Of a DNA stretch of 64,000 nt, positions 40,113 to 59,087 are shown piece by piece (position 1 is the first letter of the stretch; each line of letters begins with the position of its first letter). The stretch lies in assembly GCA_000004985.1 (NCBI GenBank), contig GG738932.1. One strand, 5' to 3'. The position numbers were made by a program, and so were the translations under genes. The notes under the pieces are model-generated. The model ran no database searches and was not told the DNA's origin. It saw only the letters and a program-made list of their open reading frames with translations. The DNA is from Naegleria gruberi (Eukaryota).

Positions 40113-41226
40113 TCACTTGTGTTTCGAATAGGTTTGAAGATGTTTTTTTCAAAGGTGCCAAGCACACAGTGTTGTGATTTCAATTTTTCATTCGACAAAA
40201 CAAAAACATGAAGGTGTGCAATTGGCCCCTTCTCTTTTAACATAACTGCGATTGATTAAAAAAGGTAATTGCAAATTTGGAGCAACACCATATTAGCTCG
40301 AGCTAGATGATTTTCATGACTTGCTCAAATTTGAGTACTAAGGCCCTCCTGTATGTAGTTATACCTTCTCCATTCAAGAAAGAGATGATGTTCAATATTT
40401 GGAAAGTTTTTGACATTTGGCAGTTGCTTTGTGGAAAGAGGAATAGGATTGTTAGGAATGCTATTCATGGTTGTTTTCATTATTTATCGGTTATATCTTC
40501 CACATTCAGTGTTTATTAACGTTGAATGAGAATGTTGATGTGGTTGTATCAGAATTGATATTCTAAACTGATTACCATCTGTAATATCAATAATTTTGCA
40601 ATAATTTACAAAAGGATGGGAAGAAGAGAATAGATAGTGAGCCACTTCAGCTACGCACCTCCTCAATTCTATTGTTTTTCTATTGATTGCTTTATTCAAT
40701 TGACCAAAAGGAAAAACAGATCACAAAAAAGGCCAATGAACCAATATCGAGATTTTGGCGCCAAAAATCAAAGTTCTTTGGAACCAAGAAAAAATATTGA
40801 GTTTGGGTGCGATGATAATGATCGTAATTATTAGAGGAGGAAATCAATGGTTACACAATCAAACAATCAAACCCTTGAGAAGTCATCAATTCTGCTAATG
40901 TATTAATTAATAATTCAATGAGTGGTTAATTATCAGCCTGAACCCCAAGCAGGATACATTAAAAATTGAACGAATTGCAAATATCACCCTTAATCATCAC
41001 CTTGCTTACTTTTTTTCCATTCTTCCTGGAAATATGAAACATTCAATAGTCGCAAAGCCCCAATCAGAGATGTTACACTTCATAATCATCAACATCACAC
41101 ATTACAGTATGTGAAACTAACCAATCAATGAGCCTAAAATCCAACATTTCAAAAAAAAAAGCAAAAAAGTCTCCGCTCATCACATCTCTCTCTTCATTGA
41201 TTTTTTTTAAATTATTGAAAATTCTA

Positions 41227-42642
41227 ATGATGAAGAACCTCGGACTAGTAAAGATCATTATGATCGTCATGATGATGTTGGTATTTGTGAGTACAGTTGA
41301 TGCTGCTGCTGCTTCAAATGTTCCATCACAAGTTCACTTGGCATTGACAAGAAATAGTAGAGAAATGATTGTTTCATTCCATACTGAAGGTTATGATAAG
41401 GATGTTTTGGGAAAGGCTCAAGTAATGTATAGTACGAATGAAAATTTCCAAGATTATCAAGTAGCTCATCTTGGAAGTGTCAGTACAACTTATGGAGAAT
41501 CTGCCAAGACTGGTTATGAACATCATGTCTTGTTGGTTGATTTGGAATACTCGACCAAGTATTATTACAAGTGTGGATTTACCAAATCTACCGATATTCA
41601 ATCTGAAGTTTATTATTTCCACACAAGAACTGATCCAAAACAATCTGAAAGTAAGCAAGTGTCAGTATTAATGTATGGAGATCAAGGAACAACCAACAGT
41701 GCATATGTCATTGCTAGAAGCAAGCATTTTGTTAATTCATTCTATGACAAATCTGATAGCAAACACAAGAACATGTTTGTTTATCATTTGGGAGATATTG
41801 GTTACGCTAACGACTTTGCAGGAGCTCAATATCAATTTATTTGGACCAAGTACATGAAAATGTTGTCTGATTTCATGCCATATGCTCCATATATGGTTTG
41901 TGTTGGTAATCATGAAAAGGGACCAAAGAATCATCCATATGATGAATTTGAAATTCCATTCAAAGCTTACAATTCTCGTTTTTACATGCCAGGTAGAAAT
42001 GAATCTGCAATTGGACATAATATGTGGCACGTTTTCGAATATGGTCCAATTACATTTGTTGCTGTTGATACTGAAACTAATTTCCCAGGAGCTCACTTTG
42101 GAAAGTATGATGATCATTTCCATGGAGAGCAATTAAAGTGGTTGGATGAAACATTATCACAAGTTGATAGAAAGAAGACCCCATGGTTGGTAGTTGTGGG
42201 CCATCGACCAATTTACAGCTCAACTAAAGAATTCTCAAATGAACATGGTGATCCAATTGGAGATTCCAAAGTTTTACAAGATGCTTTTGAGGAAGTTATG
42301 TACAAGTACAAGACTGATATTTTCATGGTTGGTCACGTTCATAGTTATGAAAGAACATATCCAGTTTATAAAACCAAAGTGGAAACCAAATCAAATTATC
42401 ATAATTTGAGATCACCTATTCATATTGTCAATGGTGGTGGAGGAAACATTGAAGGACAAACTAAGGCTGAATCATTCCATAATCATGATTGGAGTGCTGA
42501 CATTTTCTATAAGGATGAAGGATATGGTATTTTACATACCAATTATGATGAAAAGACCAAGGTTTACTCCCTAAAGTTCAATTATCATGAATCCAAGACT
42601 GGATCTGTAGTAGATACTATTACTATCTCCAAAGATCAATAA
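41227..42642 (+). CDS. purple acid phosphatase (metallophosphoesterase), secreted
   Basis: Signal peptide MMKNLGLVKIIMIVMMMLVFVSTVDA. The ORF track starts further upstream at 41128. PAP metal-ligand motifs GDQG, GDIGYANDF, VCVGNHE, VVGHRP and GHVHSYER are present. Confidence 0.8.
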   Translation: MMKNLGLVKIIMIVMMMLVFVSTVDAAAASNVPSQVHLALTRNSREMIVSFHTEGYDKDVLGKAQVMYSTNENFQDYQVAHLGSVSTTYGESAKTGYEHHVLLVDLEYSTKYYYKCGFTKSTDIQSEVYYFHTRTDPKQSESKQVSVLMYGDQGTTNSAYVIARSKHFVNSFYDKSDSKHKNMFVYHLGDIGYANDFAGAQYQFIWTKYMKMLSDFMPYAPYMVCVGNHEKGPKNHPYDEFEIPFKAYNSRFYMPGRNESAIGHNMWHVFEYGPITFVAVDTETNFPGAHFGKYDDHFHGEQLKWLDETLSQVDRKKTPWLVVVGHRPIYSSTKEFSNEHGDPIGDSKVLQDAFEEVMYKYKTDIFMVGHVHSYERTYPVYKTKVETKSNYHNLRSPIHIVNGGGGNIEGQTKAESFHNHDWSADIFYKDEGYGILHTNYDEKTKVYSLKFNYHESKTGSVVDTITISKDQ

Positions 42643-43032: not shown

Positions 43033-45192
43033 ATGCCTAACCTTGAGACTCTGAAGGAGACAGCAAGATCGGAGCTTTGCGATATTCTTGATTCGGTTTG
43101 TTATCATCACATTTATTATAATAACACAAGCAATCGAACAATATTTGTTTATCAATCATCTCATCTTCAATTAAATAATATATTATTATTAATTAATTCA
43201 TCAACATTAACAACAAAATAATAGATAAACGGAGACAAGATTCTTGTCCTTGATGAACAATTAATTGGACCTCTTGGATTAGTTGCCCCTCTGGCACTTT
43301 TAAAAGAACTTGGAGTTAAAAAACTATTTAAATTGAATGATAGAACATTTGATACCAATTTTGCAAATATTGTCTATATTGTGAGACCAAAGATGCACTT
43401 GATGAAGTGGGTTGCTAATCAAGTATCCTACTGGGTCAAACAAAAAGAAGATTTAGATCGAATGATGTCGGAAAAGCTGAAGGAAAAGAAGAACACAAAA
43501 AACAAAAAGCAACAACCTGAAGAAACCAATGAAGAAACATATACACCACCAACCAATTTCCACCTCTATTTATTACCTAAAACATCATTAATTTGTGTTG
43601 ATATCTTGAAGGATTTGGGTGTTTATCCACATTTAAGAATTTCCGAATATCCTTTGGATTTAATTGTCTTTGATAATTATTTAATGTCTTTGGAACTTCC
43701 TTCATCATTCAAGGAATGCGAATTGGATGGTGATTTTTCATCACTGTATTATGTAGCACGATCTATTATGAAGTTACAATCCTATTTTGGTTTGATACCA
43801 AATGTTAAATTTATTGGATCGGGTGCAACACATGTCTCTGAAATGATCATGAGAATGAGAAAGGAAGTTGGTTCACAAGCTTTTGCTTCTGTTCCAGAAA
43901 TTAACACATTAATTTTGATTGATAGAAATGTAGATTTAATTACTCCAATGTTAAATCAATTTACTTATGAAGGAATGATTGATGAACTTTTGGGAGGTAT
44001 TACAAATACCTTGTTTACAACTCAACGTGTACCTGAAGCTGCTACTATTGCTAAAAAGATTGCCCTCAATTCTTCTGATAATGTTTTTAATCGTTTGAGA
44101 CATCTCAATCACAATAGAGCTGGTATTGCAATCAATGAAATGGCTATTGAATTTAAATCCAGAGAAGATAAGGCAAGAGAAATCAAAACATCAGATTCTA
44201 AAGTTTCCATTGAAAAGATCAAGGAAGTTACTAAAATGTTACCACAAATTCAAGAAGACAAAAAGTATTTGGAACTTCGTAAGTTTTAAATTTCATGCAA
44301 TTCGTTACTAACACACATCCAAGACACCAAAATGATGCTTGAAATTAGATCAATTATTGGAAAGGTTCCTTTCAGAAGATTAATTCAAACACAGAAGAAT
44401 GTTCTTGATGGTGAGGATGAAAAGGAAATTATCGAATATATTGAAGAAACAATTGACAAGCAATTACCACTTACCAACGTTCTGCGTGTCATTTGTCTCT
44501 ATTCACTAATTAATGGAGGTATTAAGAATAAGGTTTTTGAAAAATTGAGAAGAGAAATTATACAAAGTTATGGACTTCAAGCATTGCCAACTCTCAACAA
44601 TTTGGAAAAGATTGGCATGCTCAGAAAGCAAGACTCCAAGTCTGTCAGTAATTGGAATTTACTGAAAAAGACATTTAATCTTGTAGATGAAGCTGCAATG
44701 GAAAGAACCAACGAGGAAGATGGTCAATATGATCCTCACTTGGTTTACAATGTCTATTGTCCAATAACTGTTGCTCTTGTCGAACATGCCATGACTGAAG
44801 AAAAGGGATGGAGAAGAGTTGAACCTGTTTTGAGTAAGCTTGCTCCAGGCCTTTATGGAGAATTATCTCAAACAGGTTCCCAAGATACTCAACTCGGAAA
44901 GAAGGTTGTCTTGGTTTACTTTATTGGAGGTGTTACTTTTGCTGAAATCAGTGCCATTACCTACTTGAATGAAAGAAGTAACGATTGTGAATACATTATA
45001 GCAACAACCAAGCTCACTAATGGATCCACATTTTTGGAAAATCTTGTTGAGGAAATTCCTGAAGATAGACAATCATTCAAAAAGAAAGCAAGCAGCGATT
45101 CCTATGCCCTTTTCTACGAAGAGCCACCAAAGGAAGGTGCTGATGCTTCATCATCTTCTGGAACAGCCAAAAACGGTCAACAAGATGTGTAA
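43033..45192 (+). CDS. Sec1/Munc18-family protein, Vps33-like, 3 exons; apparent frameshift in exon 2
   Basis: Exon 1 is 43033..43095 (MPNLETLKETARSELCDILDS). Intron 1 is 43096..43223 (GTTTGT...AATAATAG). Exon 2 is 43224..44278. Intron 2 is 44279..44333 (GTAAGT, branch TACTAAC, ...CCAAG). Exon 3 is 44334..45192. Exon 2 matches Vps33 (GDKILVLDEQLIGPLGLVAPLALLKELGVKK / LFKLNDRTFDTNFANIVYIVRPKMHLMKW; LNQFTYEGMIDELLG). The two halves are in different frames across an A7 run at 43317..43323. Confidence 0.7.
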
Positions 45193-45638: not shown

Positions 45639-48600
45639 ATGAAACAACAGCTACACGTTAATGGCCGCTTGCTGATTATTTCAGTTGTGCTGGCATTATT
45701 TCTAGTAATGACAGGTTGTGTTGCAGATATTGTGCAAGTGACACCTCAGAATCCACTGCTTGATATGATTAGTTGGAATGATAAGGATGAAATATGGTTT
45801 GCCCAATCGTGTCCTCTCACTGGATCCAACAGTCGGTAAGTTTCGAATATATTTTCTTTCCTGACTAATGGAAATAGTCTTGGAATTGAAATGAGAAATG
45901 GCATCCTTGCTGCATTCCATGAAATCAACTCTATTGGGGGTGTTTGGGGCTCAAAGAAACTCAAATTGCTCTCACTCGATGATAATTATGATCCAGTGAG
46001 CACTTTACAAAATACAAATTACTTTCTTTACAATATTACTCCACCAAATACTTCACTGAATTATGCAAATGTGTTTTCAAGTGGTAAATATGAAGATAGA
46101 AATGTCAATGATGTGAAAGTTTTTGGATTGTTAGGATATGTCGGCACGCCAACTGTCCAAGCAGTTTATTCTGATGTTGTGGCAAAGAATGTACCACTTG
46201 TAGCTTCTTTTACAGGAGTTGGTTGGTTGAGATATTCTCCATTCTATTCAAATGTCATTAATCTTAGAGCTTCCTATGATGATGAGACAGCTGCCATGAT
46301 TGACTATCTCATTAACGAAAAACTAATTAGAAGAATCTCTGTATTCTACCAAAATGACAGTTTTGGACTTGCTGGATTGAGCGGAGTCCAACGTTCCCTA
46401 GTCAACTATCTCAATATCCCTATTCGTTCCACATCTTACTATACAAGAGGAACACTAAATGTGGAAAATGCATTTCAGGAAATTGGAGCGGGAAAACCAG
46501 CTGCAATTATTTGCATTGGAACTTTTGCTCCCATTGCCAAGTTTATCAAGATGGTAAAAGATTTGGCCTTCAATTCAACTGCCAATCAATACGGTTATGA
46601 GAAACCGAGCGAAATTATTTTCATGACTTTGAGTTTCGTCAGCTCAGGAGCTCTCATTGAAAGATTAAACTCCTTCAGTTTACCTTCGAATAACTATGGC
46701 AATTCGTATTACATTGACAATGTAGTCATCACACAAGTCGTCCCCAGCCCTTTCAATCTCTCAATTCCAATAGTGAGATCCTATCAGAATGCAAGAAGAT
46801 CCTATCTACTAGCCAACGATCCATCCTCTTACAATTCCTTCACTCCCTCCTTTATAGAATTGGAAGGATACATGGCGGGAAGATTGGTTTTTTCGATATT
46901 TCAGAAAATGGTTGGAAATTTAACGAGATCCAACTTTATTGCAACGAATTATTTTGGAGGGAATAGGTTGGGAACTGATATTGGGGATTCGTCATCGACT
47001 GGTGACAGTTCAGGAGGTGTTTCACTTGTGGATGGGATTAGGGTAGGTCCGTATCGTTGGTGTGAAAGTGTCAATGTCATGGATTTGAATTTACCATATG
47101 CGGATAAGATTTCATTGAATGTTTCGGCACTTTCGAATACTACTTGTTCTAATTTTAATTGTAATCAAGGTTTGAAAGTTGTTTACAAAAGTTCAGCTCA
47201 AATTGAAAACTCTAAAATTTCATTTTCTATTTTAGGGAATAGTTTTTCATGGTATGATTACAAGGGAGGTATTTATTGCATTTCAGATCCTTCACTTGTT
47301 AAGAAACCTCTCATTTTCGGTCAATCAATCTATTCGAATAAGGACTATACTGAAGAACTAATGCTGAGAAAAGGAATTTTAATGGCCTTTACCATATATA
47401 ACCAAGGATTGTCAAGTTCTGATTCCAAATTAGAACTTTTAACACAATATCACTCAAATAAGGATGAATTAATTTCGAATACAAAGGAATTCATTGAAAC
47501 TCATGATGCACTTGCTCTGGTTGGCTATTCGACAGATCACTTTTCGTTGGTAGAAAGTAGTGGAAAGATCAATATTGCAACTAATCCACAATTTGCAAAC
47601 ATTTCCTTGATTGGAGGTGCTTCAACTATTAATTCAATGAAATTAAGAAATCCATTCACAAGGAATATCATTCACGCACATTCGTCCATTTTCGAACAAT
47701 TGGCAACGATTGTGGAATATTCAATGAATCAAGAAGCATCTTCAAGGTTTTCAATTATTTACAGTAAGAGAAATGAAGATTCATTTGCAGCTTTTGGATT
47801 ACTCAATCAAATATTGACTGCTTTGGGTTTAGTTTTAGATTCTTCTGCATGTATTGATGGTTCGAATAGTTATTCATATGCCAGTATAGATTCAATTGTT
47901 GATAGTTTGAGATATAATGGTTCTAATCCTCAAGTTGTTATATTTGCATTCCCATCAAATGTCGATGTAGTTTCGTCCTTGATTGGAGCTTTCCAAACTA
48001 CTTATCAGAATTCACCAAAATTTGGTCGAAACTTGGATATTGTTTTGATGAATTCCTTCTTTTCCCTTAATGCAGAATACGAAATGAAAGATTGGCTCGC
48101 TCAAAATTACAAGAGTTTCTTCAAAGTTTCGTTTGTTTCTCATTTAGATTCGGTTTATTCATCCTCACAACTTTCCATCGTCAAATTCATTCAAACCATG
48201 AAGAATTTCTTCCCAAACGATTATTCCAACTCAACTACCCTCTATCACAACAAAGTTTTGGAAGGATTTTATATTGGAAACTTGATTACCTCTATTCTAA
48301 TCAATATTGATTCAGGTTTGACTTCAAAGGAAGTATTGCAAACTATTTATGATGTCAAGAGTTTCATTTCTCAGCAAACGACATATGGTCCCTTCAGTGA
48401 AGATGGTTGCAATGTTGGTATTCGTCAAAATTATGTTTTCACATTCGTTTCGAATAGTTTCTCCAAAGTTTATACGAAAAGTTATGATTCAGGTTGTGGA
48501 TTATTGGCAAGCTCTGTTGAGACAGCCATCAAATCATACATTAACACGCCATTACTATTTGGATATCTAGCTCCCTATAGAAAAATTGGAAATTCTCAAA

Positions 48601-51332
48601 TTGAAAGACAATTAGACTTGTTGAGCCAGGTTTCAGATTTGGACACTTCTGGTCATACTCAATTTTCTAAGGGTCTATCCACCTATTTTAAAAAAATTAC
48701 TCAGAAATTCAATAATGGATATTCCTCTAAAAATATTCAACTTGTTATTGAATATTATAGTACTGATGAGGAGAAATTCAATCTTCCAAATAAGGTAAAT
48801 TCCTTGATTGACAAAAATAGAGTTTTTGCAATTATTGGATCAGAATTTATTTTTACTTCATCTGATATCAGTAGAGAATTTGATTCTATCAGATCCACCC
48901 TCGAAACAAAACAAATTCCTTGGATTAACAGCTATTCAGGTTCCATGGAATTGAGAAAACCGTACACTCCTTATTTTGTCAATGTTGGACCATCTGTCGT
49001 TGATCAAGCCATTTCATTCTTTAATTATTTCAAACAGAATGGAACTGTCAACTTGGCTCTTGTTTATGAAAATGATCCATTTTATACTAATATGGCAATT
49101 AGTGAAATTGTTGAATATTGTAGAATTGAATCCATTCCAATAAGTTTCACTCAGGGAGTTTATAATACATCGATAGCTGATCAAATTATTTCATTGTTTT
49201 CGAATGCAAGAATTGAGAAGGATGTGGCAATTATGGTTTTGGCAAGAGATTCGAATAGTGCTTCGATTATTAAGCATTCAATTCTTGCTGCTCAGAAATT
49301 GAACATTGATAAGAAACTCTATTTTGGTATTTTGATTGAAAATAGTGGAAGGATATTCGAACAATCTCTTGTTTCCACTTCTGACCTTTCATATTGGATT
49401 AGTTCAATTTCAGGTTCTTCCCTTTCAACTTTGTCCCAATCTGTTTTAAATGGAGTGAAAGAAGGTAAGCTAGTAATGGCTAGCTCAATGGATTCTCCAT
49501 TCCATGACTTTTCTGGTTCAGATAGCGCCTCTTTCGTCCAATTATTCAAAACCGAAACTATTTCATACTTTGATTCCAATATTAATCATTTAACATTTGA
49601 AGGTTACTCGCTTGGCCACTTTATCGATATTCTCATCACCTCCATTGAACAAGCAAAGAGTATTTCAGGTCAAACCTCAAACATTACCCCTTCAGATTTA
49701 TTGAACTCCATTTATAGTAATACCGTCTTTGATTTGAACATGAAAAAAGTTGGCCCAGTTGGATATGCCTGCTCCAATACCACAACAGCAAGTACAACTT
49801 GTGATTCTTCCACTTCCTTGGGCTGTTCCTGTAATGAAGGAGCTAAAAAAGTTGTCTTATCAACTCTAACAAGTCAACCAACTGTGAATTCTTCCGCTCT
49901 CTTCAAATATTCCAATACTATCTCAACCAATACCTTTGGAACATGTGGTTTGGTTGCTGTTGTTCCTTCTCTGTCTGTTGTTGCCATTGTCATGATTGTC
50001 CTTTCAGGTATTGCCTTCCTCCTTCTCATAACAATCATTCCAATACTTTCGTATAGATATTATGTAGCAAGAAATGCCATCAAACACGCTCCTAAATCAA
50101 AGAATGGTAAATTAGCTTGTTGCTTTACCGATATCCAAAACTCGACTGTCTTGTGGCAATCCAATGAGAAAGCCATGAGAGAAGCTTTGATCATTCACAA
50201 CCAAATTATGAGAAAGAATCTCGATCTATGTAATGGATTTGAAGTCAAGACACAGGGTGATTCATTCTTTGTGGTTTTCAAGAATCCAACTGATGCCTTA
50301 GATTGGTGTGTCTCTGTCCAACATGATTTGTTGACAGCCAAGTGGCCATCTGATTTATTGGGATTGTGGGATTGTAGACCGGAGTGGGATAATGCAACTA
50401 AGGAAATAATTTGGTCAGGAGTGAGAGTTAGAATGGGACTTCATTATGGAGCTGCGGAATATGTCTTTGATAAGGTTGTGAAAAGACCGGACTATTTCGG
50501 AACTTGTGTAAATACCTCCGCAAGAGTTGAGAGTGTGGCTATTGGTGGACAAATATTGGTTTCTGAGGATTTCTTATTGGAAACATGGAAAACAAACAAG
50601 TGCCGATTGTATTCCTTTATCAAATTCCTTCAGGGAAATAACAACTCGTACGTGAGTGAAATCATGACTGGATTGACCTTACAGGAGGAACAGAATGATA
50701 AGGACATTGTCTCAGTTGGAGGATCCAGTCATAAGAGTTCTGAATTATCGAGAAATTCCATCTCATCCAGGAATTCCTCAGTTAGCTCAGCACAAGCTTA
50801 CGATCTTTCAGATCCAAATCAAGTTACAAAGAGGAAGCGAACAAGACATGCACGTGGTTGGAGATATTTAGCTGAAGACATGGGAGAATTCACATTGAAA
50901 GGTTTGGAAGGAACAACAAGACTTTTCCAAATCAAGTCAACCATCATGGCCAAGAGAAATTATCCAGCATTGAAGAGTGTGACTGTAGCTTCATCATCTA
51001 AACCATTGTTGCTATCTCAACAAAGTGCTGCAGTTTTTGGTTTGAATGGTCAATCATCTAGCAATAGCGTGACTCAGGATAGTAAGGCATTTAGAACACT
51101 CATGACAAGAACGAATACTCAATCTTTTAGAACAGTTCCAGATCAACAGATTTATCAGAGTTATCAGGAAGATGGTATGGAGAAGGGACCACAATCAATT
51201 CCACCACAGTCTACTGTTGCAAATCCAGAAATTCCAATGGATTCAGATTTTGAAGTGTCCAGATTTAAAAAGAATAGAATTGTACCAGTAATTACAACAA
51301 CAAGTGAGAATGAGACAAATGAGGAGGAATAA
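45639..51332 (+). CDS. receptor-type class III nucleotidyl (likely adenylyl) cyclase with periplasmic-binding-protein/ANF-receptor-like ectodomain, 2 exons
   Basis: Exon 1 is 45639..45835 with signal peptide MKQQLHVNGRLLIISVVLALFLVMTGCVA. The intron is 45836..45877 (GTAAGT, CTGACTAAT, AAATAG). Exon 2 is 45878..51332. The ectodomain of about 1,400 aa has at least two PBP-type modules (LGIEMRNGILAAFHEIN...; ELMLRKGILMAFTIYNQ...; VFAIIGSEFIFTSS). One TM segment (VAVVPSLSVVAIVMIVLSGIAFLLLITIIPIL). Cyclase homology domain (CCFTDIQNSTVLW...FEVKTQGDSFFVVF...RVRMGLHYGAAE...GTCVNTSARVESVAIGGQILVSE). Ser-rich C-terminal tail. No kinase-homology domain. Confidence 0.8.
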
Positions 51333-51377
51333 AGGTTATGAAAATTAAAAAAGAAATACCATGATTTAAAAGGAAAC

Positions 51378-51449
51378 GGGGACCAGTGGGAATCGAACCC
51401 ACGGCCTCTCGCACCCAAAGCGAGAATCATACCACTAGACCATGGTCCC
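51378..51449 (-). tRNA. tRNA-Pro (UGG)
   Basis: Minus-strand read is GGGACCA-TG-GTCTAGTGGTATGATTCTCGC-TTTGGGT-GCGAGAGGCCGTGGGTTCGATTCCCACTGGTCCCC. It matches my recollection of eukaryotic tRNA-Pro apart from the anticodon. Confidence 0.8.
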
Positions 51450-51829
51450 TTACATATCATATACAAAATATAATGTTTTTAGATGGTTCATATATGTTAC
51501 GTATGCTGAAGAAAGAGAGGCAGTGCTCTGGGCTGCGAGTTTGCTGGTACAACCAGTAGATGTTATTGTGGATTAATAGTCATGTTACTGGTTAGAAGCC
51601 AATTTCTGTCTTGTAAAAGACTGCTCCAAAACATCAATAAAAGAATAATAATCCGATGTTTACATCTACTATCATTATTTGATCATCACCAACCTTCTAC
51701 TCACACATCAACTTCTCATGAAGGAAGGGAAAAGGAAATTAATCATTCTTGGATTGTCTTATTTTTTTTAAAATAGAAAATAATTTTATTAAAAATTATT
51801 TATTAATCCAACGGTAACTAACAACTAAA

Positions 51830-54800
51830 TTAGAAGGCAGCAGAAACCAATACAATAATCACCATCAAGAGCATATTCATTCCAATAGAACAAGCACCAG
51901 AAACAATAGAACTTCTTGGAATGACAGTATTATTACTTGCTGAAGGTGAAATTGGAGTAGTTGAAGTGCCTGGTTCTGGAACAGTATCTTGTCCTGATCT
52001 TACTTCATTGGTTACATCAAAGAATAGAGAGGCCATCTTCAATGGATCAACATCTGGATTAGCAGAAACACCACAAGATGAAACAGAATCCCAGGTCTTA
52101 ATTTCACTTGAAGTGATATATCTGGATGTCTCTTCAGTGCCTTGATCTCCAACGAAACGAATATTATCGAGGATCATTTCTCTGTATTGTCCATTGTTGT
52201 TTAAGGAGAAGGCAAATCTACTGAATGGTTGAACTCCTTGGAATCCCAAATCAGTGAGAGGATATCTAACTCTGGTAACACGAGTGTCATCAATCTTGTA
52301 GTGTTGAATGTAGGTTGCATTGGTTGTAATACCTCTACCAATGGTAATGAAAGCCTTGGATGTAGTATTGTACCAAGCAAAGGCCAAGTTCAAATCAATG
52401 GATCCAGAGCTATTGGTTCCCTTAATGAAGAATTCAAAGTATTTGAAAATACTGGTATCCACATTGACAACTGAACCTCTGTAAAGTTGGAAACCTCCCT
52501 TCTTGAGTCCAAAGTAATAAGAAGAATTACCACAAATTGGATTGAATGGATAGGTAATGTTGGCAACGTAGTAATCAGGACTAGCTCCAGCATATGGACC
52601 ATTGGTGAATCCAGTTGACTTGAAAGTAGCTCCTTCATCATACAATGTAATAACTTCAGAAGCATTCTTGACAGTACATGGAGAAGTGATTGGAACTGCT
52701 GGTGGCAAATTACATTTACCACTACAGTACAATTGAGCTCTCAAGTGACCTGTTGGATTTTCAATACTGGAAACCTTTACGAAAATTCTTCCCTTCAACA
52801 AGTCAACCCATTCTCCATAAGACAATTGCAAACCAAATCTACTTTGAGAATATGGAGATGGAACATAGTTATAGTGATCATTCTTTCAACAGAACCAGGA
52901 GCACCGACACCAACTTCAACCAAAGTAGCCCTATTATTCATATTGTGATGGAGAACAATATCCAATAATCTGTCATTATAATTGAGGAAGGCAAAAACTG
53001 AACCAACAGCTTGGGAAGAACCAGAAGCCAATGGAGAAACAGCAGCTTGTTGACACATTTCCAAACGACCTACAAATCTATCTTCCTTCATGTAAACTCT
53101 ATAAGTTTCTCTTGGATTTGATGGAAGACTTTGGGTGGCTCCACAATAATCATTTGGACAAGTGGCTGTAACATTGATTGCAGCTGAACTACCATAATTA
53201 CCATAATCAACAAAGCCATACCATTCCTTCTTACCACTCTTGGAGTTGGTATTCTTCAACTTGATATAAAAGTGACCAGTTGTGGCATTGAAATAATAAC
53301 ATTGTGTTGGGAAGTTAATGACATCTTCCAGAGAGTCACATAAATTGAGAGTTTTTGGATCGTTACTACTTGTTACACTGAATGTAGTACCAAGTGGATA
53401 TTGAGCAACAAAAACAGCCCAATCACCAGCACCAGATGATTGCATATTCAAATTCATTGGATTTGGAGGTGGAAGATCCCAGTTAAACTTGATAGAATAG
53501 AAACCACGAGCTGGAATGTTTGCCTGCATGGCAAAGTCGCCTCCACTGGATTGGACACCTGACACTGTACCTTGAATACCTCTCAAGAGATCAGTGAGTA
53601 TTAATCTCGGAACTCTCTTTGAATTATCCTTAAAATCAGGATGTGAAACACCATTTGGATCGATAATTACTGAAGAAGAAATGTTATAATTAGTTACTCT
53701 TAATTGGAAGTATGATTCTCCCATCAATGGACAAACTGAAGCATTATTCCAGTCATATCTTGTGATACAACCTTCAAAGTTTTGAATTGGGTCAGTACCA
53801 CTAATCCAAGCACCAGCTTCTACACCAGTGATTGAACCATCGATATCCATGAGAGCAGCACCCTTGTGATTTTCATAAGTGACAGTATCCAAGAATACTC
53901 TTTGGGGCGAGTTTTCAAACTTTAAATCACAATATCTATTTCTAGTATGGAGTCTGAAGAAGTTATCAAGGACTGACAAACAACCAGCTCTCTTATACTT
54001 GTCAGTGACAAAGTTTCTGAAAGTGACATTTCTCAATAATTCAGCACCACCATTATCATAAGTTTCATAACCCTTAATAACAGTAGTGGTTGAGTAGTAA
54101 GCATTTGGTCTTGTTCTATTACCAATATCAACAGATGGTCTCAAAGTATAATCACCAACATTCTCAGATTCAGCAATCATGATAGAATCAGTAATGTATG
54201 AAGTACCAGGTGGAGAGTTCATTTGTCTCATATTATCAGTCAAGTACAAGTTTTTGAAAACAATATTACCACAACGAGCCCAAATACCATAACCTCTCAT
54301 TTTGTAAGCAGTAAAGTTATCAATTAGTGCTTCAATAGCTGGATAATAACCTGCCAATTCAGTTGTACCATCAGATTTTTCCATATCGTCAATGAATAGA
54401 CCATTTTGACCACTGTGAGCTACATTTCCTGAAAATGGCTTTGGAGGAGCAGTTCTAGGATTGATAGAACCTGGAGCATACAGGGAGGCACTTGCACCTG
54501 TTGGGAATGTTGGCATTCTAAAGTAAAATTTAAACATTAACTATGAACAAATTGTAATAACTTACGTAAACCAAAAAGAATGCTTTCCACCCATTGCATG
54601 GTTATCAACGAATGTATTGTTTGGATTAGTAATCCAAAAAACAGCAACATCACTGTCAGATGGAATTAAACGATATGCCAAATCATAAACTGGCTTTGGA
54701 CGAATTCCCAAATTATGTTTGAAAACATTTCCGACTTCAGAACCATCTTCCAAAAAGTAACAGTGACCATTGGCATTGAAGCAGACATTATCTTGAAGCA

Positions 54801-55857
54801 AGAAATAATTGGTATCGTGAACAACGTAACATCTTTGGAAAGAGTCATGAACTGAACATCCCTTGATATAATATTGAGTACCCAAAGCAGTACCTTGAGC
54901 AGTATTTTCCAAAAGGTGAAGATGGAATGAGTATCTTCCCATCAAACCATATTGACCAAACTTTCTAATTTCAATACCTTCAACTTGGAATTGAGTAACC
55001 AAACGAACCATGAAATGACCACCGAATTGAGAAGCATCAGATGAATTGTCACCTTGGAAGACAATTCTTCTAGACAATAAACCAACTTCTGGCTTGATCT
55101 TGTTACCATCGCTGTAGTGAGTGTAATTGAGTGGAGCATCCAAGACAATAGTCTTTCCGCCATCTAAAACTTGAGTAATAATACGCTCTTCATTTTGATC
55201 TGGGAATTTAACACCTCTAGCCCAACCAATTAATGAAGAAGTTACTTTGGTATAGTCAAGTAATTCACCATAATCTGAGGTAGCAATAACAATAGAATCA
55301 CCAACTCTCCAAGAAACACTTTCGCTCAACTTGATTTGATTAGAACCCTTGACAGCAGTAACAGCCAGATCAGTAAATGTTGGATAATCAACTTGACCAA
55401 AGATTTGTACCTTTGATCCAGAGAGGAAACCAATACCCTTTGAGCCCATGTTAACGTTATCAAATGGATCTGTTCCAATATCATTCTCAGTAGTACGAGC
55501 GCCATAGAATGTCAACACAATTTTGCTAGTAATTGGACATGTGGCACTTCCCATGATCCAGCTAGCGCCTGATTCCACTCTAATAAAATCAACATTCAAA
55601 GTCAAGTTGGTATTATCGAAAATTAGAGAACCACCATTCAAAACGGTTATGGAACGAAGCTTGTTTGGTGGAGATTTGTCAACCTTGACAGCTGTGCTAA
55701 TAGTAATTTGACTATCAGCAACAGAGAATCCAGTAACACTGGAAAACAATGTTAAACCTTGTGCATCTTGTGGACAATTGGTTTGACAATTTACCAAACC
55801 AACTACCAACAGGATAAAGAATACTAAACCTGTCAGTACTCGCTGCTTGTTGGACAT
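51830..55857 (-). CDS. large secreted/membrane-anchored G8-domain beta-helix protein (CEMIP/TMEM2/fibrocystin-like), at least 3 exons
   Basis: Exon A is 55857..54557, with signal peptide MSNKQRVLTGLVFFILLVVGLVNCQ and a G8-like region (VLNGGSLIF...ASWIMGS...LTFYG). Intron 1 is 54509..54556 (GTAAGT...TTTAG). Exon B runs from 54508 to about 52891. The intron or frameshift at about 52785..52890 is unresolved. Exon C runs from about 52841/52785 to 51830 and ends in a hydrophobic tail (GMNMLLMVIIVLVSAAF). Motifs YSFHLHLL, GHFMV and repeated beta-helix-like segments. Confidence 0.55.
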
Positions 55858-57950: not shown

Positions 57951-59087
57951 TCATTTAAAAGTGTAAGAATCAGCTCTGGAAATCTCAGAAACAGTATAGC
58001 TAGTACGATCAAAGTATGGATCCATCACTGAGAAGGTCTTGCTTACCGGATCGTAACCTGTGGCCAAAACGAAATGCTCTGATTTCTTTCCAGGTGGTTT
58101 TATCAGTTTCAGAATGACCAACTTTCCTTCACATAAATTTCTTGTGGCCACCACAAGAATATCAGTTGTTCTTCCATAATATTTAACTCCAAACTTGGAA
58201 GTAATTGCTGCCCAAACGTACAAGTTCTTGTTTTGGAAACCACCATTGGTCTTCAACCATTCATTGAATTCATAGGGATTCATTTTGGTTTTTCCAATTC
58301 CATTCAATCCTGAAATAATGGATGTGATCAAACAACCTGCCTTACAAATAGTTTCACTAGAGGTTCCCAATTTGAAAGATCCCCAAGTAGAATCACATTG
58401 TTTCAATAACGGGAATTGAGATGGAATATATCCTGGTGAGCAAATATTTGGTGGAATAATTGGTGATGGTTCTGGAATAGGAGTTGGTTTTGGAGGAGGT
58501 GGAATAGGAATAATTGGAGATGGCTCTGGTTTCGGTGGAATAGGAGATGGATCAGGTGAGGGTGGAATAGGAGAGGGTTGTGGCAAAGGTGGAATAGGTG
58601 ATGGTTTTGGTTTTGGCACAATAATGACCTCACGTCTTCTTCTTCTTCCTCTTGGTATCTCCAATTCCAAATTAATATTCACACTTCCACCAGGATTGTT
58701 AGTTGTAGCAGAGGAAGATGCTGAGGAAGCAGCTCTACTTGCCTGTTGAAGAACAATAGTTTGTGGAGTTTGAGGAATTGGCACTGGAACATTCACAACT
58801 AGTTCTCTACCTGGGAAGTAACATTTACGTGAAGTTTTCTTCTTCTTTTTCCCAATAACCTTGATGATAATTTCCTTATCGTTCTTTGTTTTTTTCTTGA
58901 TAGTTTGTTTTCTTCTTCTTCTTGATGAACTTTTAAATGACCTGGCAGAGGTCAATGTAATGATCTGAACATTACTGTCTGATCTTTTTGATGATTTCGC
59001 AGCAGTAATAGCAACTACACCAAACAAACAAACCAACAAGATTCCAATAAGAAAGTTAGTTGGTTTCAGAGCAGCTGATTTGTACAT
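57951..59087 (-). CDS. secreted protein: signal anchor, polybasic/dibasic sites, Pro-rich (PSPIPP)n linker and C-terminal Peptidase_C39-like (papain-fold) domain
   Basis: N-terminus MYKSAALKPTNFLIGILLVCLFGVVAITA. SSRRRRKQ and PRGRRRRREV are candidate Kex2/furin-type sites. PKPKPSPIPPLPQPSPIPPSPDPSPIPPKPEPSPIIP linker. C-terminal domain has a TWGSFKLGTSSETICKAGCLITSIISGLNG (Cys) ... HFVLATGYD (His) ... VMDP pattern like bacterial C39-like peptidases (Q....GC.PTS..M.L...G / HAVVLTGYD...DP). Confidence 0.5.
   Translation of the reverse strand: MYKSAALKPTNFLIGILLVCLFGVVAITAAKSSKRSDSNVQIITLTSARSFKSSSRRRRKQTIKKKTKNDKEIIIKVIGKKKKKTSRKCYFPGRELVVNVPVPIPQTPQTIVLQQASRAASSASSSATTNNPGGSVNINLELEIPRGRRRRREVIIVPKPKPSPIPPLPQPSPIPPSPDPSPIPPKPEPSPIIPIPPPPKPTPIPEPSPIIPPNICSPGYIPSQFPLLKQCDSTWGSFKLGTSSETICKAGCLITSIISGLNGIGKTKMNPYEFNEWLKTNGGFQNKNLYVWAAITSKFGVKYYGRTTDILVVATRNLCEGKLVILKLIKPPGKKSEHFVLATGYDPVSKTFSVMDPYFDRTSYTVSEISRADSYTFK

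What the first reader, a model, noticed from the sequence alone, without database searches (positions are those of the whole stretch)
45639..51332. 1,880-aa receptor-type class III cyclase with tandem periplasmic-binding-protein ectodomain, single TM and no kinase-homology domain
One short 5' intron and then a 5.4 kb exon encode, in order, a signal peptide, an ectodomain of about 1,400 aa, one TM helix, a cyclase homology domain and a Ser-rich tail. The ectodomain holds at least two ANF-receptor/PBP-type modules (repeated GILAAF/GILMAF-type starts). The PBP-TM-CHD order without a kinase-homology domain differs from animal receptor guanylyl cyclases. From memory it resembles kinetoplastid receptor adenylyl cyclases, which is unexpected in an AT-rich, intron-containing genome. 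Lys in FEVKTQGDSFF sits at the position that specifies adenine in ACs. The second specificity determinant in RPDYFGTCVNTSARVES cannot be aligned confidently by eye. The protein is a candidate ligand-gated (amino-acid or small-molecule sensing) cAMP generator.
Basis: partly seen in the sequence, partly recalled or inferred. Interest (0 to 1): 0.65.

Follow-up and report, generated by a model that had tools for sequence, protein, structure and literature searches.

The report
Naegleria receptor-type adenylate cyclase gene
This is a real 1,883-residue gene of the amoeboflagellate Naegleria gruberi: a membrane receptor with three ligand-binding "Venus flytrap" modules outside the cell and a cAMP-making enzyme inside, a free-living relative of the trypanosome receptor adenylate cyclases, already in public databases as an uncharacterised protein.

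Summary
A 197-nt exon, a 42-nt GT..AG intron and a 5.45-kb exon (window 45639..51332, + strand) encode 1,883 aa. The order is signal peptide, three (not two) tandem periplasmic-binding-protein/Venus-flytrap modules, one TM helix, a 19-aa linker and a class III cyclase domain. There is no kinase-homology domain.

All six canonical catalytic residues are present, with the Lys/Asp pair that specifies ATP. The Ser-rich stretch is not simply a tail. It sits in a roughly 86-aa insertion inside the cyclase domain, and a 123-aa tail follows.

The long exon is identical to XP_002669075.1 (NAEGRDRAFT_75988, "predicted protein", Naegleria gruberi). The public model lacks the signal-peptide exon.

The cyclase domain is closest, by sequence and by predicted fold, to Trypanosoma brucei GRESAG4. 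The outermost module is clearly homologous to the first flytrap module of euglenozoan receptor cyclases (E 2.4e-55). Naegleria and trypanosomes both belong to Discoba, so the resemblance fits shared ancestry.

Most likely function: a dimerising, ligand- or stress-regulated adenylate cyclase. It is a new member of a known kind, of modest interest.

The parts
45639..45835 (+). Exon 1 (197 nt). It encodes the signal peptide (residues 1 to about 29, 45639..45725) and the start of flytrap module 1 (...DEIWFAQSCPLTGSNS). It is absent from the public model XP_002669075.1.
   Evidence: Read and spliced. Hydrophobic peak at residues 4-36. N-termini of P0003 and P0004 are homologous. Conserved in L001 together with the splice sites.
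45836..45877 (+). Intron of 42 nt, GTAAGT...ATAG, splitting codon 66 after its second base.
   Evidence: Donor and acceptor are conserved and the interior is diverged in L001.
45878..51332 (+). Exon 2, including the TAA stop. From the ATG at 45891 it is identical to NAEGRDRAFT_75988 / XP_002669075.1 (1,813 aa).
45771..47300 (+). Flytrap (type I PBP) module 1, residues 45-540. It spans the intron and ends in a Cys motif, CSNFNCNQGLK...YCISDP. It is the most conserved ectodomain module.
   Evidence: Pfam Peripla_BP_6 E 3e-20 and ANF_receptor E 3.7e-6. PDB 4kv7, a LIVBP-like protein, E 7.9e-37. hhalign to euglenozoan RAC module E1: probability 100%, E 2.4e-55. 53-56% identity to paralogues. dN/dS 0.085.
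47301..48548 (+). Flytrap module 2, residues 541-956 (starts KPLIFGQS...GILMAF; ends ...GCNVGIRQ...SGCGLL).
   Evidence: hhalign to M1 E 1.3e-12 and to M3 E 1.8e-23, and to E1 E 2e-21. Weak Pfam PF25493 hit, 20.9 bits, below the cut-off. AF2 model with alternating strand/helix pattern; Foldseek top hits are LIVBP-type PBPs.
48549..49940 (+). Flytrap module 3, residues 957-1420, membrane-proximal (ends ...GCSCNEGAKK...FGTCGL). It is the fastest-evolving module.
   Evidence: hhalign to M1 E 6.6e-16 and to E1 E 4.3e-22. The best ANF_receptor stretch in the whole-protein scan maps here. AF2 and Foldseek. dN/dS 0.22.
49950..50054 (+). Single transmembrane segment, about residues 1424-1458.
   Evidence: Kyte-Doolittle peak of 3.0. 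Apart from the signal peptide, no other segment exceeds 1.85.
50055..50108 (+). Juxtamembrane linker of about 19 aa with the invariant A-P-(K/T) motif that trypanosome GRESAG4 also carries. There is no room for a kinase-homology or coiled-coil domain.
   Evidence: Alignment to 1fx2 and 1fx4. A12 and P13 are invariant in 8 homologues..
50109..50600 (+). Cyclase homology domain, N-terminal core (residues 1477-1640). Catalytic residues: D1484 (50130-50132), K1523 (50247-50249), D1527 (50259-50261), D1604 (50490-50492), N1611 (50511-50513), R1615 (50523-50525). The alpha3-beta4 insertion (WPSDLLGLWDCRPEWDNATKE) is about half the length of the trypanosome one.
   Evidence: Pfam PF00211, 64.8 bits. 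PDB phmmer alignments. Invariant columns. AF2 pLDDT 95-98 over this part. Foldseek. Codons verified.
50601..50846 (+). Insertion inside the cyclase domain (residues 1641-1722). It consists of a short strand and a helix, then a disordered Ser-rich loop (about 1680-1720) that ends in a basic cluster, KRKRTRHAR.
   Evidence: Our sequence has about 104 aa where T. brucei GRESAG4 has 18 aa. The insertion is present in heterolobosean homologues and absent in P0018. pLDDT is below 50 for fragment residues 222-262.
50847..50960 (+). Cyclase homology domain, C-terminal beta-hairpin (residues 1723-1760; WRYLAEDMGEFTLKGLEGTTRLFQI). K1740 is at 50898-50900.
   Evidence: Aligned to LGDVALRGV...MYQL of 1fx2 and to ELKGFSGTYRLF of Ma1120. 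Strands at fragment residues 271-279 and 288-295 with pLDDT about 95.
50961..51329 (+). C-terminal tail of 123 aa, rich in S, T and Q. The conserved motif N-R-I-V-P-V is at residues 1865-1870 (51273..51290).
   Evidence: Composition. Motif shared with P0002, P0004 and P0005, and more loosely with P0003, P0007 and P0018. dN/dS 0.22 against L001.

Best explanation
The locus is Naegleria gruberi gene NAEGRDRAFT_75988, with a 5' signal-peptide exon that the public model lacks. It encodes a type I membrane glycoprotein that is a receptor-type adenylate cyclase of the same lineage as the euglenozoan (trypanosome, Leishmania, Euglena) receptor adenylate cyclases.

Shown here:
- The architecture is signal peptide, three homologous LIVBP-like Venus-flytrap modules, one TM helix, a 19-aa linker carrying the family's APK motif, a class III cyclase domain and a tail.
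- The catalytic set is complete: D1484 and D1527 for the two metal ions, K1523 and D1604 for adenine, N1611 and R1615 for the transition state.
- The gene is under purifying selection.

Inferred from established knowledge of homodimeric class III cyclases and of trypanosome RACs:
- A single cyclase domain per chain is inactive on its own.
- Two chains pair head-to-tail and form two symmetric active sites at the interface. One chain supplies the metal-binding Asp residues. The other supplies Lys/Asp and Asn/Arg.
- The ectodomain sets the proximity and orientation of the two cytosolic domains.

Proposed input: a small molecule, amino-acid-like or organic-acid-like, closes the most conserved, membrane-distal flytrap (module 1). 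The resulting rearrangement passes through modules 2 and 3 and the short rigid linker to the cyclase dimer and raises cAMP. The cAMP then acts on the PKA and RegA-phosphodiesterase machinery that Naegleria has.

The Ser-rich disordered loop inside the cyclase domain and the S/T-rich tail are candidate phospho-regulatory elements. This last point is speculative.
For: Identity and gene model.

Domains.

Three modules:
- hhalign among the modules gives E 1e-12 to 2e-23 over 311-344 columns.
- The AF2 model of modules 2+3 has mean pLDDT 75.8. Its Foldseek top hits are LIVBP-type PBPs (TM 0.68-0.80), followed by iGluR, GABA-B, NPR and taste-receptor flytraps.
- Module 1 matches PDB 4kv7 at E 7.9e-37 and euglenozoan RAC module 1 at E 2.4e-55.

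Cyclase domain:
- Best PDB sequence hits are 1fx4 and 1fx2, T. brucei GRESAG4 (92 and 88 bits), against 44 bits for the next family.
- The AF2 model has mean pLDDT 84.6, and its Foldseek top hits are again 1fx4 and 1fx2.
- FTD, K, GD, D, N and R are invariant across 8 homologues.

Selection: dN/dS against the syntenic orthologue is 0.085, 0.15 and 0.22 for modules 1 to 3, with dS about 0.7.

Literature:
- Trypanosome RACs have two flytrap domains, a TM helix and a cyclase domain, and are activated by dimerisation (PMC6027212).
- Naegleria has PKA-R and RegA (PMC4399386).
- Naegleria has at least 81 cyclases (PMC9928731).
Against: - No enzymatic, expression or localisation data exist for this gene. 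No paper in the searchable library names it.
- The ligand is unknown, and no ligand is known for any trypanosome RAC either (PMC7719234).
- The protein's own match to the RAC-specific Pfam ectodomain family PF25493 is below the gathering score (23.5 against 27.2 bits).
- The join between the heterolobosean and euglenozoan cyclase-domain clades in my NJ tree has only 56% bootstrap. The tree uses 94 columns and a sample biased towards hits of the query.
- The roughly 86-aa insertion in the cyclase domain is absent from solved structures, so its effect on dimerisation is unknown.
- In the one orthologous contig found, the cyclase core is deleted. The catalytic part may therefore be dispensable in that strain.
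Confidence: 0.8

Rival explanations
1. The enzyme is the same, but it is not gated by a diffusible ligand. Membrane or environmental stress (acid pH, hypotonic or osmotic shock, proteolysis) drives dimerisation. This has been reported for T. brucei cyclases and for the osmosensing Dictyostelium ACG. In this reading the flytrap stack is mainly a dimerisation or spacer scaffold.
For: T. brucei RAC activity rises 10-100-fold at pH 5.5 and under hypotonic or proteolytic stress, and no ligand is known (PMC6027212; PMC7719234). Modules 2 and 3 evolve fast, with 27-34% identity to paralogues and dN/dS 0.15-0.22. The ACG precedent is quoted in PMC9928731.
Against: Module 1 is strongly constrained (dN/dS 0.085). 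It keeps the loop motifs shared with a bacterial LIVBP-type binding protein and with euglenozoan module 1: GxVGTPT, FTG..LR, RASY.DETAAM, QNDSFG, VSFVG, TQVVP, LEGY. That pattern suggests a conserved binding function. I have not shown that these motifs line the cleft.
Confidence: 0.25
2. The PBP-TM-cyclase arrangement arose independently in Heterolobosea by domain shuffling or horizontal transfer. On this view the likeness to trypanosome RACs is convergent rather than inherited from a Discoba ancestor.
For: The deep node joining the two clades has only 56% bootstrap. PBP-cyclase fusions also occur with kinase domains in green algae, such as Chloropicon P0015. The module number differs (3 against 2). 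Modules 2 and 3 match euglenozoan module 1 better than module 2.
Against: Both ends of the protein independently find the euglenozoan family as nearest relative: module 1 to E1 at E 2.4e-55, and the cyclase domain to GRESAG4 as best PDB hit by sequence and by fold. Three small features are shared: the juxtamembrane APK motif, the W-(P/G) start of the alpha3-beta4 insertion, and the CxCNxG(x)(R/K)...C motif that closes each module. Heterolobosean homologues P0006 and P0007 pass the Pfam cut-offs of the RAC ectodomain families PF25493 and PF25495.
Confidence: 0.1
3. The protein is a pseudo-cyclase or decoy receptor. It binds something outside the cell, and its cyclase domain is inactive or regulatory only.
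For: The cyclase domain carries an unusual insertion of about 86 aa. The orthologue in contig L001 has lost the cyclase core yet keeps a 1,399-aa open ectodomain.
Against: All six canonical catalytic residues, plus R1582, R1584 and K1740, are intact and invariant in the family. The core is 55-62% identical to paralogues, the highest of any region. The L001 tail, now out of frame, still shows dN/dS 0.22, so that deletion is recent or an artefact.
Confidence: 0.05
4. It is a guanylyl cyclase of the animal natriuretic-peptide-receptor type that has lost its kinase-homology domain.
For: ANF_receptor Pfam hit. NPR-C and NPR-A ectodomains are among the fold matches of modules 2+3.
Against: The specificity pair is Lys/Asp (K1523, D1604), as in adenylate cyclases, not Glu/Cys. 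Animal and soluble guanylyl cyclases are far weaker PDB matches: 3et6 at E 0.0048, against 2.6e-25 for GRESAG4. There is no kinase or coiled-coil segment.
Confidence: 0.03

Closest known systems
Trypanosomatid receptor-type adenylate cyclases (T. brucei ESAG4/GRESAG4, Leishmania RAC) and their Euglena relatives
   Same: Type I topology with flytrap/PBP ectodomain, one TM helix, a short APK-containing linker and a single class III cyclase domain with K/D (ATP) specificity, followed by a variable S/T-rich tail of about 110-125 aa. The cyclase domain is the best PDB match by sequence and fold. Module 1 is homologous to RAC module 1 at E 2.4e-55. The presumed mode of activation, dimerisation, is the same (PMC6027212).
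   Different: There are three flytrap modules (ectodomain about 1,390 aa) instead of two (about 90 kDa). The alpha3-beta4 'Delta-subdomain' insertion is about 18-20 aa rather than 36 aa. There is an extra insertion of about 86 aa, partly disordered and Ser-rich, before the last beta-hairpin. The organism is a free-living heterolobosean.
Naegleria paralogues and orthologues (N. gruberi P0002, P0003, P0025; N. fowleri P0004; N. lovaniensis P0005) and Acrasis kona 'adenylate cyclase' P0026
   Same: The same three-module architecture, the same cyclase-domain insertion and the same C-terminal NR(I/V)VP(V/L) motif. Overall identity is 38-41%. The cyclase domain of P0025 is 82% identical.
   Different: All are unnamed 'predicted' or 'hypothetical' proteins. 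This copy groups with P0025 and P0003 as N. gruberi-specific duplicates, sister to the N. fowleri plus N. lovaniensis pair.
Animal membrane guanylyl cyclases (NPR-A/GC-A type)
   Same: ANF_receptor-type flytrap ectodomain, single TM helix, C-terminal class III cyclase domain, and action as a dimer.
   Different: Animals have one flytrap, a kinase-homology domain, a coiled-coil linker and Glu/Cys (GTP) specificity. None of these is present here.
Bacterial LIVBP-type solute-binding proteins (Peripla_BP_6, e.g. PDB 4kv7 from Rhodopirellula baltica; LivJ/LivK)
   Same: Module 1 aligns over about 340 residues at E 7.9e-37 with shared loop motifs. Modules 2+3 have the same fold.
   Different: The bacterial proteins are soluble, single-module proteins that feed ABC transporters. 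Here three copies are fused in tandem, each closed by a Cys-containing hairpin, and they are anchored to a cyclase.
Green-algal PBP-kinase-cyclase receptors (e.g. Chloropicon primus 'guanylate cyclase' P0015)
   Same: PBP ectodomain plus a class III cyclase domain in one chain.
   Different: They carry a protein-kinase domain between the membrane and the cyclase. Identity is only 31% over 35% of the query.

Membership tests
Class III nucleotidyl cyclases (Pfam PF00211) | Significant match to the cyclase homology domain profile | tested here: met
   62.6-64.8 bits against a cut-off of 21.9.
Class III nucleotidyl cyclases (Pfam PF00211) | Two metal-binding Asp residues, plus the transition-state Asn and Arg | tested here: met
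   D1484, D1527, N1611 and R1615 align to the equivalent residues of 1fx2, 1fx4 and Ma1120. They are invariant in 8 homologues.
Class III nucleotidyl cyclases (Pfam PF00211) | Cyclase fold | tested here: met
   AF2 model with mean pLDDT 84.6 and pTM 0.81. 201 PDB chains match at E<=0.001, and the 50 best listed are all class III cyclase entries.
Class III nucleotidyl cyclases (Pfam PF00211) | ATP specificity pair Lys/Asp (as opposed to Glu/Cys for GTP) | tested here: met
   K1523 in EVKTQGD and D1604 in PDYFG. These are the same positions as K and D in GRESAG4 and in Ma1120, whose 'KDA to EGY' mutant entries appear.
Class III nucleotidyl cyclases (Pfam PF00211) | Catalytic activity | not testable with these tools
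   Needs an enzyme assay.
Euglenozoan/trypanosomatid receptor-type adenylate cyclases (RAC) | Signal peptide, large extracellular domain, single TM helix, cytosolic cyclase domain directly after a short linker | tested here: met
   Hydropathy. The linker is 19 aa and carries the APK motif shared with GRESAG4.
Euglenozoan/trypanosomatid receptor-type adenylate cyclases (RAC) | Ectodomain flytrap modules homologous to those of RACs | tested here: met
   hhalign of module 1 against module E1 of 13 euglenozoan RACs (including Leishmania P0159 and Euglena P0155): probability 100%, E 2.4e-55 over 370 columns. The protein's own Pfam PF25493 hit is sub-threshold. Homologues P0006 and P0007 pass the cut-off.
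Euglenozoan/trypanosomatid receptor-type adenylate cyclases (RAC) | Exactly two flytrap domains (about 90 kDa ectodomain) | tested here: not met
   There are three modules over about 1,390 aa. The two-domain layout is described in PMC6027212.
Euglenozoan/trypanosomatid receptor-type adenylate cyclases (RAC) | 36-aa Delta-subdomain in the alpha3-beta4 loop | tested here: inconclusive
   The insertion is present but about 16 aa shorter than in GRESAG4. Its start (W-P/G...L) aligns, and the remainder is shorter. The feature is defined in PMC6027212.
Euglenozoan/trypanosomatid receptor-type adenylate cyclases (RAC) | Cyclase domain monophyletic with RAC cyclase domains | tested here: inconclusive
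   Nearest solved structures by sequence and fold. In the NJ tree the heterolobosean clade (86% bootstrap) and the euglenozoan-RAC clade (94% on its own, 80% once Chloropicon P0015 and P0150 are included) join at only 56%, on 94 columns and with biased sampling.
Euglenozoan/trypanosomatid receptor-type adenylate cyclases (RAC) | Flagellar membrane localisation | not testable with these tools
   Needs tagging in Naegleria flagellates.
Animal receptor guanylyl cyclases | Kinase-homology domain and coiled-coil between TM and cyclase domain | tested here: not met
   No Pkinase or PK_Tyr hit. Only 19 aa separate the TM helix from strand 1 of the cyclase domain.
Animal receptor guanylyl cyclases | GTP-specifying Glu/Cys pair | tested here: not met
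   Lys/Asp is present instead.
Dictyostelium ACG-type osmosensing cyclase | Sequence or architecture match to ACG | not tested
It is only cited, via PMC9928731, as structurally similar to trypanosome RACs.

The most novel reading that the evidence does not exclude
The flytrap-TM-cyclase receptor is an ancestral Discoba invention, not a 'hallmark of trypanosomatids'. Its outermost module (module 1, equivalent to euglenozoan module 1 and resembling bacterial 4kv7-type LIVBP) would then have kept one ligand class across Heterolobosea and Euglenozoa. In that case the culturable, non-pathogenic Naegleria protein could be used to de-orphanise the trypanosome receptor cyclases, whose ligands have been unknown for decades. 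The conserved C-terminal NRIVPV motif might be a flagellar-sorting signal used when the amoeba turns into a flagellate.
Probability: 0.25. Interest if true: 0.55.

Novelty: new member of a known kind. Interest (0 to 1): 0.3.

Why it matters
Receptor adenylate cyclases are central to trypanosome virulence, social motility and transmission. Their extracellular ligands and their evolutionary origin are both unknown.

A clear homologue in a free-living heterolobosean pushes the family back to the common ancestor of Heterolobosea and Euglenozoa, if it is confirmed by a better phylogeny. This homologue has an intact catalytic set, strong purifying selection on the outermost binding module, and an extra module. 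It also offers a simpler organism for ligand hunting.

In practical terms, the work corrects a public gene model that lacks its signal peptide, and it assigns a function to a 'predicted protein'. The finding is not surprising to a specialist. Naegleria is known to encode more than 80 cyclases, and the sequence has been public since 2010.

Tried and rejected
- I first guessed a dictyostelid or other amoebozoan genome from the 34% GC content and short introns. This was rejected when the homologue search returned Naegleria and the exact look-up identified N. gruberi.
- A literature search combining Amoebozoa, periplasmic binding and trypanosomes found nothing. Searches for Naegleria plus receptor-type cyclase or flytrap and for the gene's accession numbers also found nothing.
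A contig look-up of the 1,813-aa ORF and of P0025 found no record, so the locus of the 82%-identical paralogue could not be examined.
- A homologue search with the cyclase domain alone returned almost only short, mostly bacterial, fragments and no trypanosomatid proteins. I reached named euglenozoan RACs only by searching with the bridging protein P0018.
- Pfam scans of modules 2 and 3 on their own gave only sub-threshold hits. Their nature had to be established by profile-profile comparison and structure prediction.
- I considered whether the Ser-rich insertion could be an unspliced intron. I rejected this because it is in frame, its first 40 residues are conserved and predicted as structured, and it is present at similar length in N. 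fowleri, N. lovaniensis, Acrasis and two further homologues.
- The window holds no second cyclase gene (tblastn).
- I did not use the search of protein representatives, because it returns no names or architectures and so would not have decided anything.

Full report
**1. What is in the sequence**

The + strand holds an ATG at 45639 followed by 197 nt of coding sequence. Next come a 42-nt intron (45836..45877, GTAAGT...ATAG) and an uninterrupted reading frame from 45878 to the TAA at 51330..51332. By base composition, a 1,813-codon open frame in this 34% GC sequence has a chance probability of about 3e-60.

The long exon, read from its first ATG (45891), is letter-for-letter the public protein XP_002669075.1 / EFC36331.1 / UniProt D2W3L8. 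That entry is NAEGRDRAFT_75988, 'predicted protein [Naegleria gruberi]', on a 195-kb contig. The window is therefore Naegleria gruberi, and the gene is already in the databases, unnamed.

The public model starts at residue 71 of my model. It therefore lacks the signal peptide and the first strand of the first binding module.

Exon 1 is real:
- The N-termini of paralogue P0003 and of the N. fowleri protein P0004 run through a hydrophobic signal sequence into 'W(N/D)..(D/N)E(I/V)WFAQSA.L(T/S)G....LGIEM(R/K).GI.AAF'. This matches the exon-1/exon-2 junction here.
- In the syntenic contig L001, from a related Naegleria (81% nucleotide identity), the ATG context and both splice sites are conserved.
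- In L001 the intron interior is diverged, and the signal-peptide region differs by an in-frame 9-nt indel.

**2. Architecture**

Hydropathy shows the signal peptide (residues 4-36) and one strongly hydrophobic segment at about residues 1424-1458. Pfam finds Peripla_BP_6, ANF_receptor and Guanylate_cyc above their cut-offs. It also finds a sub-threshold hit to PF25493, 'Adenylate cyclase, periplasmic binding protein-like domain'. No kinase family is found.

I cut the ectodomain at the repeated 'KP(L/I)IFGQS...GI..AF' starts. Profiles built from seven homologues show that the three pieces are homologous to each other over 311-344 columns:

| Pair | E-value |
|---|---|
| Module 1 vs 2 | 1.3e-12 |
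| Module 1 vs 3 | 6.6e-16 |
| Module 2 vs 3 | 1.8e-23 |

So there are three tandem modules, not two. Their extents are residues 45-540, 541-956 and 957-1420.

Further evidence on the modules:
- Module 1 matches the solved LIVBP-like protein 4kv7 at E 7.9e-37, with shared loop motifs.
- An AlphaFold2 model of modules 2+3 (mean pLDDT 75.8, pTM 0.78) has the alternating strand/helix pattern of two bilobed domains.
- The best PDB fold matches of that model are LIVBP-type binding proteins (TM 0.68-0.80 on the target). After them come the flytrap domains of glutamate, GABA-B, taste and natriuretic-peptide receptors.
- Each module ends in a Cys motif, C.(C)N.G.(K/R)...C. This motif is also seen after both modules of the euglenozoan-type protein P0018.

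**3. The cyclase domain**

Only 19 residues separate the membrane from the first strand of the cyclase domain. They contain an A-P-(K/T) motif that is invariant in eight homologues and present in T. brucei GRESAG4.

Against all PDB sequences, the best matches are GRESAG4.3 and 4.1 (1fx4 and 1fx2; E 2.6e-25 and 4.6e-24). They are far ahead of the mycobacterial cyclases (E 1.5e-10) and of a soluble guanylyl cyclase (E 0.005). An AlphaFold2 model of the cytosolic part (mean pLDDT 84.6, pTM 0.81) again has 1fx4 and 1fx2 as its best fold matches (E 2e-17).

The alignments place the catalytic residues as follows:

| Role | Residues |
|---|---|
| Metal-binding Asp | D1484, D1527 |
| Substrate-specifying pair | K1523, D1604 |
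| Transition-state pair | N1611, R1615 |
| Lys of the final LKG | K1740 |

All except K1740 are invariant across the eight homologues aligned. The Lys/Asp pair is the adenylate-cyclase signature.

Two features differ from the trypanosome domain:
- The alpha3-beta4 insertion, the 36-aa 'Delta-subdomain' of trypanosome cyclases (PMC6027212), is about 16 residues shorter here. Its beginning still aligns.
- About 104 residues, against 18 in GRESAG4, separate 'GGQILVSE' from the final hairpin 'GEFTLKGL...RLFQI'.

This second insertion starts with a conserved strand and helix. It continues as a disordered Ser-rich loop (pLDDT below 50, about residues 1680-1720) and ends in a basic cluster. It is present in the Naegleria, Acrasis and two further homologues and absent from the euglenozoan type. 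The true tail is 123 aa. It carries a conserved N-R-I-V-P-V motif 14-19 residues from the C-terminus.

**4. Relatives**

The full-length search found these relatives:
- an 82%-identical partial orthologue (P0001, from contig L001);
- N. gruberi paralogues P0002 and P0003 (41% and 39%);
- single N. fowleri and N. lovaniensis proteins (38%);
- two metagenome/JGI 'adenylate cyclases' (P0006, P0007) that pass the cut-offs of the RAC-specific Pfam families PF25493 and PF25495.

The cyclase-domain search added a second close N. gruberi copy (P0025, 82%) and an Acrasis kona 'adenylate cyclase' (53%).

I then searched with the bridging protein P0018, which has two modules and 148 bits to PF25493. This retrieved Euglena transcripts and a Leishmania 'receptor-type adenylate cyclase'. 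A profile of module 1 from those 13 euglenozoan proteins matches module 1 here with probability 100% and E 2.4e-55. Modules 2 and 3 match it at about 1e-21, and they match the euglenozoan module 2 at about 1e-10.

A neighbour-joining tree of the cyclase core gave these results:

| Clade or node | Bootstrap |
|---|---|
| Heterolobosean clade | 86% |
| Euglenozoan RAC clade (T. brucei, Leishmania, Euglena) | 94% |
| Node joining the two | 56% |

The tree rests on 94 columns and a sample biased towards the query's own hits. It is compatible with common descent but does not prove it.

Heterolobosea and Euglenozoa are both Discoba (PMC7900873 abstract). This removes the 'unexpected' element of the finding.

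**5. Constraint**

Identity to paralogues varies by region:

| Region | Identity to paralogues |
|---|---|
| Module 1 | 53-56% |
| Cyclase core | 55-62% |
| Module 2 | 32-34% |
| Module 3 | 27-30% |

Against the syntenic orthologue, dS is about 0.7. dN/dS is 0.085, 0.15 and 0.22 for modules 1, 2 and 3, and 0.22 for the tail. The gene is therefore under purifying selection. The membrane-distal module and the catalytic core are the most constrained parts.

**6. How it most likely works**

Shown here: the topology, the three binding-protein modules, the complete ATP-type catalytic set, and the family relationship.

Inferred from established knowledge of homodimeric class III cyclases and of trypanosome RACs (PMC6027212):
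- One chain cannot form an active site.
- Two chains pair head-to-tail, and activity depends on how the ectodomains position them.

I propose that a small ligand closing module 1 is the input, and that cAMP acting on the PKA/RegA machinery present in Naegleria (PMC4399386) is the output.

The main rival is activation by acid, osmotic or membrane stress without a ligand. This has been reported for T. brucei cyclases and cannot be excluded.

The readings as a pseudo-enzyme, a guanylyl cyclase or a convergent origin are each disfavoured by specific results listed under the rival explanations.

**7. Novelty and score**

The kind is known, and the sequence has been public since the 2010 genome. Naegleria's large cyclase repertoire is documented (at least 81 cyclases; PMC9928731). 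The Euglena genome paper already noted links between Naegleria and Euglena cyclase subfamilies, though not this one (PMC6366073).

No paper in the searchable library names this gene or describes a flytrap-type receptor cyclase in Naegleria. A 2018 review calls the type 'a hallmark of trypanosomatids'.

The new points are modest:
- a corrected gene model;
- three modules instead of two;
- a lineage-specific insertion in the catalytic domain;
- evidence that the receptor type predates the Euglenozoa.

I rate it a new member of a known kind, interest 0.3.

Noticed in passing
L001:5195-5260 (Logan SRR25266747 contig), corresponding to window 50083..50848: In the syntenic orthologue from a related Naegleria, 766 nt are missing. 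These encode the whole cyclase core plus the insertion (residues about 1468-1723). The junction reads GCCATCA/TGTGCACGTGG. The loss shifts the frame, so the product (P0001, 1,399 aa) stops 12 residues after the TM helix. The tail is still open in another frame with dN/dS 0.22. The deletion is therefore recent, heterozygous or an assembly artefact.
   Followed up: partly
window 51378..51449, minus strand: A tRNA-Pro (TGG) gene lies 46 nt after the cyclase stop codon. It is 97.6% identical in L001. It explains the spurious 100-aa minus-strand ORF at 51164..51466.
   Followed up: yes
window 45639..45890: The public model XP_002669075.1 (NAEGRDRAFT_75988) starts at the internal ATG 45891. It lacks the signal-peptide exon and the first strand of module 1.
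   Followed up: yes
window 51273..51290 (residues 1865-1870): The motif N-R-I-V-P-V near the C-terminus recurs in P0002 (KKNRIVPLV), P0004 (NRIVPVV) and P0005 (NRVVPVV). It recurs more loosely in P0003, P0007 and the euglenozoan-type P0018 (VIPF). From memory it resembles VxP/RVxP ciliary-targeting motifs. This was not tested.
   Followed up: no
window 43333..45192, + strand: Two adjacent ORFs match the N- and C-terminal halves of the Sec1 family profile (positions 38-323 and 330-574). They form one Sec1/Munc18-like gene split by a short intron near 44290..44331. Its 3' end is also upstream of the orthologue in L001.
   Followed up: partly
window 51830..55857, minus strand: ORFs with G8 and CEMIP beta-helix domains (54562..55857) and a weak CEMIP_X hit (52795..54537) are followed by a 333-aa ORF that ends in a hydrophobic segment (51830..52831). 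This is probably one multi-exon secreted or membrane G8/CEMIP-like protein that converges on the cyclase gene.
   Followed up: no
P0025 (N. gruberi, 164 aa, partial; 712-kb contig): A second N. gruberi cyclase-domain fragment is 82% identical to residues 1470-1633 of this protein. This indicates a very close paralogue elsewhere in the genome. Its locus could not be retrieved.
   Followed up: partly
P0002 (N. gruberi paralogue, 1,647 aa): The public model of this paralogue breaks off right after 'GGQ' of the cyclase domain. It resumes with unrelated sequence and then the KKNRIVPLV tail. This looks like a mis-predicted intron that removes the end of the catalytic domain.
   Followed up: no
window 36300..38450 (+), 41128..42642 (+), 57951..59087 (-), 61772..62797 (-): Other neighbours are a protein with nine DUF4116 repeats, a purple acid phosphatase, a Peptidase_C39-like protein and an NHL/SGL beta-propeller protein. 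The window holds no other cyclase or PBP gene.
   Followed up: no
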